The notes beneath the pieces are model-generated. The model was not told where the DNA came from, made no database searches, and saw nothing but the letters and a program-made list of their open reading frames with translations. This document shows, piece after piece, positions 58,124 through 64,000 of a stretch of DNA of 64,000 nt (its first letter is position 1; every line of letters starts with the position of its first letter). The translations under genes and the position numbers were made by a program. Origin of the DNA: Escherichia coli (GTDB lineage: Bacteria > Pseudomonadota > Gammaproteobacteria > Enterobacterales > Enterobacteriaceae); assembly GCF_003018255.1 (NCBI RefSeq), contig NZ_CP027440.1. One strand, given 5' to 3'.

Positions 58124-59665
<1,542 letters not shown>

Positions 59666-59789
59666 AAAAGTTTGATGCTCAAAGAATTAAACTTCGTAAT
59701 GAATTACGTGTTCACTCTTGAGACTTGGTATTCATTTTTCGTCTTGCGACGTTAAGAATCCGTACCTTCGAGTGCCCACACAGATTGTC

Positions 59790-59809
59790 TGATAAATTGT
59801 TAAAGAGCA
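59790..59809 (-). promoter_or_regulatory. rrn leader boxA antitermination element
   Basis: Reverse complement reads TGCTCTTTAACAATTTATCA. Confidence 0.65.
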
Positions 59810-59849
59810 GTTGCGACGCGGCTTTCAGCTCACTGTCGCGAGGTGGCGT

Positions 59850-59877
59850 ATATTACGCTTTCCTCTTTCAGAGTCAA
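59850..59877 (-). promoter_or_regulatory. rrnD P2 promoter (-35 TTGACT, -10 TAATAT)
   Basis: Hexamers read on the minus strand upstream of boxA. Confidence 0.55.
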
Positions 59878-59957
59878 CCCCGAATTTCAGGATTTTTTCT
59901 CTTTGTTGTTACGACCATCTTGTGAAGTGTTTCACGTTGTCGTCTCAACGGAGGCGC

Positions 59958-59985
59958 ATTATAGGGATCCCAATTTTTTGCACAA
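59958..59985 (-). promoter_or_regulatory. rrnD P1 promoter (-35 TTGTGC, -10 TATAAT, GC-rich discriminator)
   Basis: Hexamers read on the minus strand; A/T-rich UP-element-like tract lies just upstream (59986..60010). Confidence 0.55.
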
Positions 59986-60137
59986 GTACTTTTTTGATCT
60001 TTTTTTCTGTTTGTTGCTTTTTCACCCTTTTTGCTGCATTCGCACACAAAACGGTGCTTTTTTGCATGCTAAAAGACTTGCACAAGGCCAATAATGCACC
60101 CAAAGTCATTAGTAAATCATTTATTGTTGAGGTGAGT

Positions 60138-60692
60138 ATGTCTGATGTTTTACGCCCATACCGCGATCTTTTTCCACAAATCGGCCAGCGCGTAATGATC
60201 GACGATAGCAGCGTCGTGATTGGTGACGTTCGTCTGGCTGATGATGTGGGGATCTGGCCGCTCGTTGTGATTCGTGGAGATGTACATTATGTACAGATCG
60301 GAGCACGCACCAATATCCAGGATGGCAGTATGTTGCATGTCACTCATAAATCCTCGTACAACCCAGATGGCAACCCATTAACCATTGGCGAAGATGTCAC
60401 TGTTGGTCACAAGGTGATGCTCCACGGCTGCACCATTGGCAATCGAGTTTTGGTTGGGATGGGCTCAATTTTACTTGATGGCGCAATAGTAGAAGATGAT
60501 GTGATGATTGGTGCGGGTAGCCTGGTCCCACAAAATAAACGGCTGGAGAGCGGATATCTGTATCTCGGTAGCCCCGTCAAACAGATCCGCCCGTTAAGTG
60601 ATGAAGAGAAGGCTGGGTTACGCTATTCCGCGAAGAATTACGTGAAATGGAAGGACGAATATCTGGATCAGGGTAACCAGACCCAACCTTGA
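60138..60692 (+). CDS. yrdA: Gamma-carbonic-anhydrase-like hexapeptide-repeat protein YrdA
   Basis: Trimmed to ATG at 60138 giving MSDVLRPYRDLFPQIG... (184 aa). Confidence 0.85.
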   Translation: MSDVLRPYRDLFPQIGQRVMIDDSSVVIGDVRLADDVGIWPLVVIRGDVHYVQIGARTNIQDGSMLHVTHKSSYNPDGNPLTIGEDVTVGHKVMLHGCTIGNRVLVGMGSILLDGAIVEDDVMIGAGSLVPQNKRLESGYLYLGSPVKQIRPLSDEEKAGLRYSAKNYVKWKDEYLDQGNQTQP

Positions 60693-60925
60693 TCATCTTC
60701 ACTTTGTTCCTGAATTAAGTTTTCCGCTTCTTCTTCCAGGTCCCAGCGATGCTGACGAAAACTCGCTAACCACTGTTCTGGCGTATCTCCAGTAAAGCGA
60801 TACGCCAGACTCTCGCCAGAGATCGCACATGTCAGTTGCATACCATTCACGAGAGCGGGAAAACATACACATCTTTTATTCTCGTCCCACTCTTCCCTAT
60901 CCGGAAACTGGATGGCCTGATTCAC
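60668..60925 (-). CDS. yrdB: DUF1488-family protein YrdB
   Basis: 85-aa ORF; 3' end overlaps yrdA by 25 bp. Confidence 0.8.
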
Positions 60926-61740
60926 GCTGACAATTCCTGTTGCAATAGTTTGATGACCGGTTCTACATCAGGCAGAACGCCATGCCAAAGAAGGAAGGCA
61001 TGAGCCGCCTGTGCCACCAGCATTCCTAAACCATCAGCATTACGCTTTGAGCCTCGCTGCTCACACCATGCCAGAAAAGGAGTTTTTCCTTTCTGATAGA
61101 ACATGTCATAGCAATAAATGCCTGGATGAATAAGCGATGACGGGATCGCCGGAATATCACCACTGATGCCACTGGATGTTGCATTAATAATGAGATCAAA
61201 CTCATGACCTTCCAGTTCGTCCATACCCAACGCCTGAATACTGCCAGTGTGCGCAAACAATTTAGCCAACTCTTCCGCGCGGGATACCGTCCGATTAGTG
61301 ATTGTCACCGCACAGTCCAGGGAAAGAAGTGGCAGTAGTACGCCGCGAGAAGCTCCACCAGCGCCGATGAGCAGAATACGTAAACCAGGACGGATAAAAG
61401 ACAGACGTTCCAGATCGCTTAACAAACCTATACCATCGGTATTGTCACCCAGCAGGCGTCCATCTTCTAACCGCTTGAGGGTATTAACAGCACCAGCCAA
61501 CGCTGCCCGTTCAGTAAGCTCATCCGCTCTGGCAAAAGCCTCTTCTTTAAAAGGTACCGTCACATTCGCACCTTTACCACCAGCACTAAAGAAAGCGTTC
61601 AGTGTGTTGATGAAATCATTGATGGGTGCCAACACGCGCCCATAGGGATGTTCAATATTCAGTTGCTGAGCAAATTGCTGATGAATGAATGGCGATTTGC
61701 TGTGGGCTATCGGATTACCAAAAACAGCATAGGTTTCCAT
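60922..61740 (-). CDS. aroE: Shikimate dehydrogenase
   Basis: Trimmed to [17 protein letters not shown]... (272 aa). Confidence 0.9.
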
Positions 61741-61744
61741 TATG

Positions 61745-62317
61745 TTACCCCTGTCGAAACAGTTCACCCGTCAGGGCATCGCGGATTTCTGAAGGATTTA
61801 AACGCCCCCCCGTTTCACCAGGCACAACCGGGAACGCCGCGCCAAATTGTGCGCGAACTTCGTCTACTGTTCGACAAGGTGGCAATCCACTCAAGTTGGC
61901 ACTGGTAGAAACCAGCGGTTTACCATAAGCCTGGCACAAAGCAACCACCAACGGATGGTCGGTGACTCGTACAGCAAGCGAATCAAAGCGGCCCGTCAAC
62001 CAGCGCGGTGTTGTCGCAGGCGCGGGAAAGACAAAGGTGACAGGACCTGGCCAGCGGGAAAAAATGGTTTCACGCTGCGCATCAGTCAGCATGGTGTCAT
62101 CAATATAGGGTTTAAGCTGCTCGTAATTTGCCGCGATTAAAATCAGCCCCTTATCAACCGGACGCTGTTTTAACTCCAACAGTCGCATCACTGCTGTTTC
62201 GCTATCAGGATCGCACCCGACACCGAAAACGGCTTCCGTTGGATAGGCGATGACACGTTTTTCATTGAGGACATCTATCGCAGCTGCGATAGCGTCTCCT
62301 TGCAGGTTATTATTCAC
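61745..62317 (-). CDS. tsaC: L-threonylcarbamoyladenylate synthase TsaC (formerly YrdC)
   Basis: Start set to GTG at 62317, giving 190 aa and aligning with the known N-terminus. Confidence 0.8.
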
Positions 62318-62321
62318 GTTA

Positions 62322-62864
62322 TTATTCCGCCGAAACCGGCTTTCCACATTGTTTACTGGCACAAAAGTGTTTTACACCCTGCGCGGTTTTCTTTTCGATG
62401 AGTAGCGGATAATGACACTCAGGGCATTCTCCAGCTATGGGTTTGAAGTTAATGGCAAATTGACACTCCGGGTAGCGATCACAGGAGTGAAATGTTTTGC
62501 CATAACGGGAACGGCGCTGGACCAGATGGCCCGTCCGACATTGGGGACAGGTAATTGCTGTTTCGTCCGGTTTATCGATAAGTTCGGTATGTTCGCATTC
62601 AGGGTAGTTACTGCAACCAATAAACATACCAAAGCGTCCCTGGCGTAATACCAGATTTGCGCCACATGCAGGGCAAACCTGCCCCTCCAGAACTTTGACA
62701 ATATGTCCATCCGCTGAAGATTTCAGAGGACGGACGTAGTCACACGCCGGATACTGTGAGCATCCAAGAAACGGACCGTGTTTCCCGGATCGAATAACCA
62801 GTTCAGCCCCGCACTTTGGGCAGGACTCATTATTACGCACCGTGAACAGTGCTGATTTCGCCAT
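62322..62864 (-). CDS. yrdD: Zinc-ribbon (topoisomerase DNA-binding C4-type) protein YrdD
   Basis: 180-aa ORF with repeated C-x2-C...C-x2-C motifs. Confidence 0.85.
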
Positions 62865-62892
62865 AACAACTTATGCTGAATTAAAGAAATGA

Positions 62893-63366
62893 TTAATGCA
62901 GCATACCTTCATTCACTTCAAAGAGTAATTCTTCCATTTGCTGGTACGCATTTTCGCAGCCCGGAATATTGAACAACACCATCAGGATTACCCATTTCAG
63001 GTCTTCCAGGTCGAACTCTGCGGTATCCAGCGCGAGCACTCGCTCTATCACCATTTCACGGGTTTCAAGGTTAAGCACCTGAATTTGCTCAAGGAAAAGC
63101 AGAAAACCACGACAGCTGGCATCCAGCCTTTCACACTCTTCAGGGGTATAAATACGCATGGAGAGTGGATCAGAGGCCAGTTGCATCGGTTCTGCCAGTC
63201 CTTCCTGATAATCCGCAAGCTTTTCCAGCCAAAGCAGGGCATTGTAGATATCTTCTCGATCAAATCCTGCGTCGGTAAGATCCTGTTCAAGTTTGTCTTG
63301 ATCCACACGCAACTCAGCTTCTGTGTGAATATAGGTTTCAAACAAATACATTAGTACGTCGAACAT
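62893..63366 (-). CDS. smg: Smg (DUF494) protein
   Basis: 157-aa acidic ORF matches E. coli Smg. Confidence 0.85.
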
Positions 63367-64000
63367 GGCATGCCCTCCTCAATCGGACATAGCCGCCGGG
63401 TACAGCTGCGATCCATCCTGCTAACTCCAGTTCGAGTAGTTGAGTTACTACCTCTGGCACAGGTTGGCCGGCACGTTCAGCGACGACGTCAACAGGTGTT
63501 ACCTCATCTCCTACGTTAGCCAGGAGCTCAGGAAATGGCAATGCCACGTCTTCCTGATCTGGTGAATAAAATGAATTTTCAGGGGCGTCTGGCAACCAGT
63601 GCAATCCAAATTGCAAGTTTTCCAGAATTTCTTCCGGTTCCGTCACAAGAATCGCACCTTGTTTTATTAACCAGTGAGGCCCTTCGCTTCCCGGATTCCC
63701 TAATGGACCCGGCAAGGCAAAAACTTCACGCCCCTGCTCAAGCGCACAACGTGCTGTCACCAGCGAACCACTGCGCAAAGCCGCTTCCACCACCAGTACA
63801 CCTTTACTTAGACCACTGATAATGCGATTTCTTCGTGGGAAATTGTAAGCAAGGGGTGGAACATCGAGGGGAAATTCCGAGACAAGAGCACCACCATGTT
63901 CAAGCAAACTGGTAGCCAGTCGGGCATGGCGACGCGGATGAATGGTATTAAGTCCATTCCCCAATACAGCAATGCTGACGCCATTTACCTGTAAGGCCGC
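63338..64000 (-). CDS. dprA: DNA-processing protein DprA (Smf), C-terminal part; 5' end lies beyond the window
   Basis: Frame is open to the window edge; C-terminal sequence matches E. coli Smf; overlaps smg start. Confidence 0.8.

What the first reader, a model, noticed from the sequence alone, without database searches (positions are those of the whole stretch)
60668..60692. Convergent 25-bp overlap of the yrdA and yrdB coding ends
yrdA (plus strand) and yrdB (minus strand) overlap at their 3' ends, so their mRNAs are necessarily antisense over at least 25 nt and could interfere with each other. The whole yrdB-aroE-tsaC-yrdD-smg-dprA run on the minus strand is packed with overlaps or gaps of 5 bp or less, and tsaC appears to start on GTG.
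Basis: seen in the sequence. Interest (0 to 1): 0.15.

Follow-up and report, generated by a model that had tools for sequence, protein, structure and literature searches.

The report
Conserved yrdA–yrdB tail-to-tail gene overlap
Two real E. coli genes on opposite strands share their last 25 bases, an old and already catalogued arrangement that makes their RNAs overlap but has no demonstrated regulatory role, so it is ordinary.

Summary
yrdA (60138-60692, +) and yrdB (60668-60925, -) overlap by exactly 25 bp, as in RefSeq annotation of a 100% identical E. coli genome and of MG1655. Both ends are genuine: YrdB matches Pfam DUF1488 end to end, YrdA has a crystal structure, and the 25-bp overlap is kept in about 74 of 80 Enterobacteriaceae species. 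Outgroups from Vibrio to Pantoea keep the genes convergent, from an 11-bp gap to a 46-bp overlap. Every value is 1 modulo 3, so wobble position faces wobble position, which fits stop-codon drift of yrdA into the conserved YrdB C-terminal codons. No intrinsic terminator lies at or after either stop. Published MG1655 data place a plus-strand 3' end 122 nt past the yrdA stop and bicyclomycin-sensitive Rho termination regions on both strands. The plus-strand RNA therefore runs antisense through at least 147 nt of yrdB. The pair is already listed among 165 convergent E. coli "excludons". There is no evidence of actual interference, and p19 dsRNA data as held list no abundant duplex here. Side claims: tsaC does start on GTG (75 of 77 species), but the yrdD-smg gap is 28 bp, not 5 or less. 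Verdict: real, conserved, already known, low interest.

The parts
60138..60692 (+). yrdA CDS (184 aa, gamma-carbonic-anhydrase-like hexapeptide-repeat protein); stop TGA at 60690-60692
60668..60925 (-). yrdB CDS (85 aa, DUF1488); GTG start 60925-60923, stop TGA 60670-60668
60668..60692 (.). 25-bp dual-coding overlap. It holds YrdA residues Q178-P184 plus stop, and YrdB residues Q79-P85 plus stop. Third codon positions of the two genes coincide (60668, 60671, ... 60692).
60666..60694 (.). Imperfect inverted repeat GATCAGGGT-N11-ACCTTGATC whose arms contain the two facing TGA stops. It is a weak hairpin, not significant against shuffles and not conserved as a stem.
60693..60814 (+). Inferred yrdA 3' UTR, antisense to yrdB codons. 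It ends at the Term-seq 3' end mapped in MG1655 (3429912 = window 60814).
60777..60809 (+). 11-bp stem-loop (-17.9 kcal/mol) ending 5 nt before the mapped 3' end, with no U tract. It looks like an exonuclease stop rather than an intrinsic terminator.
60693..61074 (+). C-rich, G-poor untranslated plus-strand RNA reaching a bicyclomycin-sensitive Rho termination region (MG1655 3430172, Rho score 5.0), antisense to yrdB and aroE
60138..60667 (-). Region downstream of the yrdB stop, antisense to yrdA. It is C-rich (C/G up to 2.1) and has no terminator-like site. Minus-strand read-through rises with bicyclomycin (Rho region reported at MG1655 3429916 = window 60818, score 2.5).
60922..60925 (-). 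GTGA junction where the yrdB GTG start overlaps the aroE TGA stop. An RTGA junction is kept in 83 of 86 loci.
60922..61740 (-). aroE CDS (shikimate dehydrogenase)
61745..62317 (-). tsaC CDS with GTG start at 62317-62315
62322..62864 (-). yrdD CDS, separated from smg by a 28-bp gap
62893..63366 (-). smg CDS, whose start overlaps the end of dprA by 29 bp
63338..64000 (-). 3' part of dprA (smf), cut by the window end

Best explanation
This is a genuine, old tail-to-tail overlap of two real protein-coding genes. It is best read as a by-product of genome compaction and stop-codon drift, not as a dedicated regulatory device.

Shown:
- yrdA and the last gene of the dprA-smg-yrdD-tsaC-aroE-yrdB run have abutted stop-to-stop since before Vibrionales and Enterobacterales split.
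- The relative reading frame has stayed fixed, with wobble position facing wobble position.
- The YrdB C-terminus (EDDQGW[VI]WL[SP]) is strongly conserved.
- The last 7-8 YrdA residues (xQ[DEG][NS]Q[TI][QH]P) are a lineage-specific extension whose sequence mirrors the YrdB codons opposite them.
- No intrinsic terminator exists for either gene.

Inferred:
- In the ancestor of Enterobacteriaceae the yrdA stop moved so that YrdA gained a short, probably unstructured tail read from the antisense of the YrdB C-terminal codons.
- The overlap is then frozen because most changes would damage YrdB or destroy a stop codon.
- Each RNA polymerase runs on into the other gene. Once the ribosome has left at the stop, the C-rich untranslated antisense RNA is terminated by Rho and trimmed back to a stem-loop.
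- The RNAs are therefore complementary over about 150-400 nt rather than 25 nt.
- At the low expression of both units this probably causes at most mild polymerase collision or RNA duplex formation.
For: - Exact annotation match in two genomes.
- Pfam and PDB support for both proteins.
- The 25-bp overlap is kept in about 74 of 80 Enterobacteriaceae species. Exceptions are 19 bp (twice) and 40 bp, which are in-frame stop shifts, plus one locus with a disrupted yrdA.
- Outgroups give +4, +13, +25 and +46 bp overlaps and 11-bp gaps (twice), all 1 modulo 3.
- Variation inside the overlap is concentrated at shared third positions 60674, 60680, 60686 and 60689. Changes such as 60676 A>G are synonymous in yrdB but N>S in yrdA.
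- More distant gamma-carbonic-anhydrase homologues in the PDB mostly align only to about residue 160-179 of YrdA.
- No terminator-like site lies downstream of either stop. The hairpin at the overlap has z = -0.5 and is not conserved.
- C/G exceeds 1 downstream of both stops.
- Term-seq 3' end and bicyclomycin-sensitive regions come from Adams 2021.
- Lillo and Krakauer 2007 count 58 convergent CDS overlaps in E. coli and attribute convergent overlaps to stop-codon mutation.
- The pair is listed as a convergent excludon.
Against: - Strict retention of the 25-bp length across a whole family, and of tight convergence from Vibrio to E. coli, could also reflect selection for coupled expression.
- ExcludonFinder reports less single-cell co-expression for excludon pairs as a class.
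- The origin of the plus-strand RNA ending at 60814 and near 61074 was not traced to the yrdA promoter specifically.
- Rho regions are defined with 800-nt windows, so their positions are approximate.
- The stop-drift scenario rests on a handful of outgroups without a formal ancestral reconstruction.
Confidence: 0.72

Rival explanations
1. Functional convergent excludon. Read-through from yrdA into yrdB and aroE, and the reverse, reciprocally lowers expression by polymerase collision and/or RNase III cleavage of the RNA duplex. YrdA and the tsaC-aroE-yrdB end of the operon would then be expressed in a mutually exclusive or balanced way, and the missing terminator and the overlap would be maintained for that purpose.
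For: - yrdA-yrdB is in the core E. coli 'excludome', found in at least 50% of 58 RNA-seq sets.
- Transcripts overlap by at least 147 nt.
- There is no intrinsic terminator.
- The convergent, near-abutting arrangement is conserved from Vibrio to E. coli.
- Excludon pairs as a class show less single-cell co-expression.
Against: - No locus-specific functional data exist.
- The p19 dsRNA tables as held list no abundant duplex between about 60265 and 61277.
- 3' overlaps are about 38-fold poorer in captured dsRNA than 5' overlaps.
- Both units are weakly expressed, with 160 and 98 reads per 800 nt.
- Mutating the internal antisense promoter in yrdA had no effect on yrdA::lacZ.
- Conservation is fully explained by dual-coding constraint.
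Confidence: 0.2
2. The inverted repeat spanning the overlap (60666-60694) is a compact bidirectional intrinsic terminator embedded in both coding ends, so the transcripts overlap by only about 25-30 nt.
For: A 9-bp stem (GAUCAGGGU/ACCUUGAUC) is followed on the plus strand by a moderately U-rich stretch. Lillo and Krakauer found predicted rho-independent terminators at 21 of 58 E. coli convergent overlaps.
Against: - The consensus terminator scan does not call it.
- Folding energy is not better than shuffles (z = -0.5 and -1.2).
- The three invariant central pairs are simply the two facing TGA/TCA stops. Pair 24-38 is unpaired in 60 of 75 species, and only 74% of cells pair overall.
- No Term-seq 3' end is reported at the yrdA stop. 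The mapped plus-strand end is 122 nt further on, and read-through is bicyclomycin-sensitive.
Confidence: 0.04
3. Annotation artefact: one of the two stops or reading frames is miscalled and the true CDSs do not overlap.
For: Pallejà et al. 2008 show that many long (over 60 bp) convergent overlaps are 3'-extension misannotations.
Against: - The overlap is only 25 bp.
- Stop positions need no start-codon choice.
- Both tails and both stops are conserved across about 80 species.
- The DUF1488 profile match runs to the last profile position, at YrdB residue 84 of 85.
- The YrdA structure construct includes residue 184.
Confidence: 0.02

Closest known systems
Conserved convergent (tail-to-tail) overlapping gene pairs of prokaryotes (Rogozin et al. 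2002; Lillo and Krakauer 2007, PMC2174442)
   Same: Two real genes on opposite strands share their 3' coding ends. The overlap fits origin by stop-codon mutation. It is one of about 58 such pairs counted in E. coli. The phase is their class (123:213), the same as the common 4-bp overlaps.
   Different: Among convergent overlaps of 5 nt or more, phase (123:213) is the least frequent class at 18%. Here the same relative frame persists from Vibrio (4 bp) to Pantoea (46 bp).
Excludons: overlapping transcription of neighbouring opposite-strand genes (ExcludonFinder, PMC12288877)
   Same: The transcripts overlap, and the pair is listed in the E. coli core set of 165 convergent excludons.
   Different: Classical excludons overlap through long UTRs and show demonstrated reciprocal expression. 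Here the CDSs themselves overlap and no reciprocal regulation has been shown.
Rho-dependent termination of untranslated or antisense RNA downstream of stop codons (Adams et al. 2021, PMC7815308)
   Same: There is bicyclomycin-sensitive read-through on both strands and C-rich, G-poor RNA after each stop. The 3' end lies just after a stem-loop without a U tract, as expected for exonuclease-trimmed Rho products.
   Different: Nothing unusual. The Rho substrate is simply the antisense of the partner gene.
Bidirectional intrinsic terminators between convergent genes
   Same: An inverted repeat sits exactly between and within the two gene ends.
   Different: It lacks a GC-rich stable stem, flanking A and U tracts, conservation, and a mapped 3' end. 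It fails the defining tests.

Membership tests
Convergent overlapping CDS pair | Both reading frames encode real proteins | tested here: met
   Pfam Hexapep and DUF1488; PDB 3TIO/3TIS for YrdA and 2GPI as a homologue of YrdB; homologues with conserved length.
Convergent overlapping CDS pair | Each stop codon lies inside the other gene's reading frame | tested here: met
   yrdA TGA at 60690-60692 lies opposite YrdB D78/Q79. yrdB TGA at 60670-60668 lies opposite YrdA D177/Q178.
Convergent overlapping CDS pair | Overlap conserved in two or more genomes (the criterion used to exclude misannotation) | tested here: met
   About 74 of 80 Enterobacteriaceae species keep exactly 25 bp. Outgroups range from +4 to +46 bp, or an 11-bp gap.
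Excludon (convergent) | Transcripts of the two neighbouring genes overlap | tested here: met
   Taken from published data read here, not from new experiments: ExcludonFinder Table 1 and the Term-seq 3' end at window 60814.
Excludon (convergent) | Reciprocal or mutually exclusive expression of the pair | not testable with these tools
   No locus-specific expression data were accessible. Only class-level single-cell statistics are reported.
Excludon (convergent) | RNase III processing of the sense/antisense duplex | tested here: inconclusive
   The p19 tables list no duplex in window 60265-61277, but the tables were cut when stored and use abundance thresholds.
Bidirectional intrinsic terminator | Stable GC-rich hairpin followed by a U tract on both strands | tested here: not met
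   The scan does not call it. Energy is -11.7 kcal/mol with z = -0.5 on the plus strand, and z = -1.2 on the minus strand.
Bidirectional intrinsic terminator | Stem conserved or covarying in relatives, with RNA 3' ends mapped just after it | tested here: not met
   74% of cells pair, and the invariant pairs are forced by the stop codons. No reported 3' end lies at the stops.
Rho-dependent terminator region | Read-through increases when Rho is inhibited by bicyclomycin | tested here: met
   Published DirectRNA-seq gives Rho score 5.0 at window 61074 (+) and 2.5 at 60818 (-).
Rho-dependent terminator region | C-rich, G-poor untranslated RNA upstream of the termination zone | tested here: met
   C/G is 1.2-1.8 on the plus-strand RNA at 60693-61092 and 1.2-2.1 on the minus-strand RNA at 60667-60368.

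The most novel reading that the evidence does not exclude
The terminator-less, frame-locked yrdA/yrdB convergence, kept from Vibrio to E. coli, is selected as an excludon. It would tie expression of the gamma-carbonic-anhydrase-like YrdA inversely to the distal end (aroE-yrdB, perhaps tsaC) of the dprA-smg-yrdD-tsaC-aroE-yrdB operon, through polymerase collision and Rho- or RNase III-dependent decay.
Probability: 0.1. Interest if true: 0.3.

Novelty: already known. Interest (0 to 1): 0.08.

Why it matters
It matters little beyond bookkeeping. The overlap is in the standard MG1655 annotation, and the transcript overlap is catalogued in a 2025 excludon map. The locus is a clean textbook-style example of three things. 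A convergent overlap can be frozen by dual-coding constraint. One partner's tail (YrdA) can become the antisense 'shadow' of the other's conserved C-terminus. Genes without room for a terminator rely on Rho acting on the partner's antisense RNA. If the excludon reading were true, it would add a regulatory link between an uncharacterised gamma-carbonic-anhydrase-like protein and an operon containing tsaC. That would still be one more member of a known class.

Tried and rejected
- Rfam scan of 59500-64000 at E<=1 found nothing at or near the overlap. The only hits were 16S and a sub-threshold Ysr197 match in the rrnD leader.
- The consensus terminator scan found no site downstream of either stop. 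The only nearby hit (61010-60996, minus strand) lies inside aroE, upstream of yrdB, and total counts match shuffled expectation.
- I rejected the overlap hairpin (60666-60694) as a terminator.
- I tested conservation of the 60777-60809 stem-loop. 70% of cells pair, with some double changes, but the result is inconclusive. The structure was derived from the E. coli sequence, the region codes for YrdB, and the shuffle control is known to be exceeded by related sequences.
- TERMITe Term-seq supplements (PMC12207403) have no entry for yrdA, yrdB, b3279 or b3280.
- ExcludonFinder supplements are not held, so I could not obtain the overlap length, the Nanopore confirmation flag or the RNase III overlap for this pair.
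- I considered counting all convergent overlaps in E. coli myself, but the annotation tool is limited to 50 kb per call. I used the published count of 58 instead.
- I rejected the misannotation explanation (see rivals).

Full report
**What is in the sequence**

The 3' end of the window is the E. coli region rrnD (-) / yrdA (+) / yrdB-aroE-tsaC-yrdD-smg-dprA (-). A 901-bp query around the finding is 100% identical to E. coli DETEC-S792. It matches 5425 of 5426 complete E. coli genomes, and 5421 hold at least 80% of it.

RefSeq features of that genome transfer to the window as follows.

| Gene | Window coordinates | Strand |
|---|---|---|
| yrdA | 60138-60692 | + |
| yrdB | 60668-60925 | - |
| aroE | 60922-61740 | - |
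| tsaC | 61745-62317 | - |
| yrdD | 62322-62864 | - |
| smg | 62893-63366 | - |
| dprA | 63338 to beyond 64000 | - |

MG1655 has the same layout, and genome coordinate = window coordinate + 3369098.

**Are the two ends real?**

- Pfam assigns YrdA to the hexapeptide-repeat fold.
- YrdB matches DUF1488 over residues 5-84 of 85 and the whole profile, 1-82 of 82.
- YrdA has solved structures, 3TIO and 3TIS, whose construct reaches residue 184.
- YrdB has a solved homologue, 2GPI.
- YrdB homologues are almost all 85 aa, with an invariant or near-invariant C-terminus EDDQGW[VI]WL[SP].

**Conservation**

A scan of one genome per GTDB species returned 80 loci, all Enterobacteriaceae. yrdA is convergent with yrdB in every one. 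About 74 have exactly the 25-bp overlap.

The exceptions are these.

- Two loci, L066 and L071, have 19 bp, with YrdA ending two codons earlier.
- Siccibacter turicensis has 40 bp.
- One locus has a disrupted yrdA.
- One locus uses TAA for the yrdA stop, with YrdB Q79 changed to Y to match.

More distant YrdB relatives were found with the representative search, named through cluster members and placed on contigs. All keep the aroE-yrdB and yrdA convergence.

| Taxon | Overlap or gap |
|---|---|
| Vibrio fortis | 4-bp overlap |
| Plesiomonas | 11-bp gap |
| Limnobaculum-like Budviciaceae | 11-bp gap |
| Edaphovirga-like | 13-bp overlap |
| Rouxiella | 25-bp overlap |
| Pantoea stewartii | 46-bp overlap |

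Every value is 1 modulo 3. The relative reading frame is therefore fixed, and all differences are whole-codon stop shifts.

**Anatomy of the dual-coding stretch**

Third codon positions of yrdA and yrdB coincide at 60668, 60671, ... 60692. This is phase (123:213) of Lillo and Krakauer.

Across 79 species, variation is concentrated at shared wobble sites 60674, 60680, 60686 and 60689. Wobble sites opposite the two YrdB Trp codons (60677, 60683) are 100% and 89% conserved.

Non-wobble changes are synonymous or conservative in YrdB but change YrdA. For example, 60676 A>G is Leu to Leu in YrdB and Asn to Ser in YrdA. 60682 C>T is Val to Ile in YrdB and Thr to Ile in YrdA.

More distant gamma-carbonic-anhydrase homologues in the PDB mostly align only to about residue 160-179 of YrdA. 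Outgroup YrdA proteins are 178-181 aa, except Pantoea at 188 aa. The simplest reading is that YrdB is the constrained partner and the YrdA tail is a lineage-specific extension gained by stop-codon drift. Lillo and Krakauer favour the same mechanism for convergent overlaps in general. They count 58 convergent overlaps in E. coli, and (123:213) makes up 18% of convergent overlaps of 5 nt or more.

**Termination and the real extent of RNA overlap**

No terminator-like site lies downstream of either stop.

The inverted repeat across the overlap (60666-60694) folds weakly, at -11.7 kcal/mol with z = -0.5. Its invariant central pairs are just the two facing TGA stops, and one pair is unpaired in 60 of 75 species. 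It is not a terminator.

Published MG1655 data from Adams et al. 2021 add the following.

- A single plus-strand Term-seq 3' end (LB, OD 0.4) lies at 3429912, which is window 60814. It is 122 nt past the yrdA stop and antisense to yrdB.
- That end lies 5 nt after an 11-bp stem-loop (60777-60809, -17.9 kcal/mol) with no U tract.
- A plus-strand Rho termination region lies at 3430172, window 61074, antisense to aroE. Its Rho score is 5.0, with downstream reads rising from 22 to 107 under bicyclomycin.
- A minus-strand Rho region lies at 3429916, window 60818. Its score is 2.5, with downstream reads rising from 79 to 408.
- No 3' end is assigned to yrdA itself.

RNA downstream of both stops is C-rich and G-poor, as expected for Rho substrates. 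The plus-strand RNA therefore runs antisense through at least 147 nt of yrdB (60668-60814), and probably about 400 nt, rather than 25 nt. I did not trace this plus-strand RNA to the yrdA promoter specifically.

ExcludonFinder already lists yrdA-yrdB among 165 convergent E. coli excludons present in at least half of 58 RNA-seq sets.

**Does the overlap do anything?**

I found no locus-specific evidence that it does.

- The p19 dsRNA study (Huang et al. 2020) lists a cluster and duplexes at about 60232-60268 in the 5' part of yrdA. They come from an internal antisense promoter with TSS 60279.
- It also lists a duplex antisense to aroE at about 61277. It lists none between about 60265 and 61277 in the tables as held.
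- In general it found about 38-fold less captured dsRNA in 3'-overlap regions than in 5'-overlap regions.
- Dornenburg et al. 2010 mutated that internal antisense promoter (-10 CATAAT, window 60291-60286) and saw no change in yrdA::lacZ.
- Both units are weakly expressed in the DirectRNA-seq windows.

I therefore rate a neutral, compaction-driven architecture as most likely (0.72) and a functional excludon as a minority possibility (0.2).

**Side claims**

tsaC starts on GTG at 62317-62315. No upstream in-frame ATG exists, the first downstream ATG lies inside the conserved domain, and GTG is conserved in 75 of 77 loci.

yrdB also starts on GTG here, within a GTGA junction with the aroE stop. 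An RTGA junction occurs in 83 of 86 loci.

Four of the five junctions are an overlap or a gap of 5 bp or less. The 28-bp yrdD-smg gap is the exception.

**Verdict**

The feature is real, conserved and already known, both in the annotation and in the excludon catalogue. The only mildly new descriptive points are the frame lock from Vibrio to E. coli and the 'mirror' nature of the YrdA tail. Interest is low.

Noticed in passing
window 60279-60291 (- strand) and 60232-60268: A known internal antisense promoter lies inside yrdA, with -10 CATAAT at 60291-60286 and TSS at 60279. It produces an RNA that overlaps the yrdA 5' end. p19-captured RNase III duplexes map at about 60232-60268. Mutating the promoter did not change yrdA::lacZ (Dornenburg 2010; Huang 2020).
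   Followed up: partly
L083-L090 compared with window 60668-60692: The distance between the yrdA and yrdB stops varies among Vibrio, Plesiomonas, Budviciaceae, Yersiniaceae-like taxa, Erwiniaceae and Enterobacteriaceae. The values are an 11-bp gap and overlaps of 4, 13, 19, 25, 40 and 46 bp. All are 1 modulo 3, so the relative reading frame has been locked since before the Vibrionales/Enterobacterales split.
   Followed up: yes
window 61826, 62213, 62700, 63158 (- strand) and 63190 (+ strand): Published MG1655 data show RNA 3' ends or Rho regions inside the operon. Term-seq ends lie within tsaC (86 nt upstream of aroE), within yrdD and within smg. Rho regions lie within tsaC and antisense to smg. 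This hints at internal attenuation or processing of the tightly packed operon.
   Followed up: no
window 60922-60925: yrdB starts on GTG inside a GTGA junction with the aroE stop, an arrangement associated with translational coupling. Across relatives the start is GTG in 37 loci and ATG in 51, and the 4-bp RTGA overlap is kept in 83 of 86.
   Followed up: yes
window 59787-60028 (- strand): A sub-threshold Rfam match to Yersinia sRNA Ysr197 (87 bits against a gathering score of 167, E = 3e-20) lies in the rrnD promoter and leader region, just upstream of yrdA. Ysr197 may simply be an rrn leader fragment.
   Followed up: no
L048 (CACSKA010000021.1): A contig labelled Chryseobacterium sp. 18061 carries a typical Enterobacteriaceae yrdB/yrdA locus (YrdB 70% identical, 25-bp overlap). 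The assembly is probably contaminated or mislabelled.
   Followed up: no
window 61277-61299: A p19-captured RNase III duplex antisense to aroE lies beyond the plus-strand Rho region at about 61074. Some plus-strand RNA therefore exists still further into aroE, from read-through or from a separate antisense start.
   Followed up: no
window 60666-60669 and 60691-60694: Two GATC (Dam) sites sit symmetrically in the arms of the inverted repeat that carries the two stop codons. Only the second is fairly conserved across species (76-97% per base). No function is suggested.
   Followed up: partly
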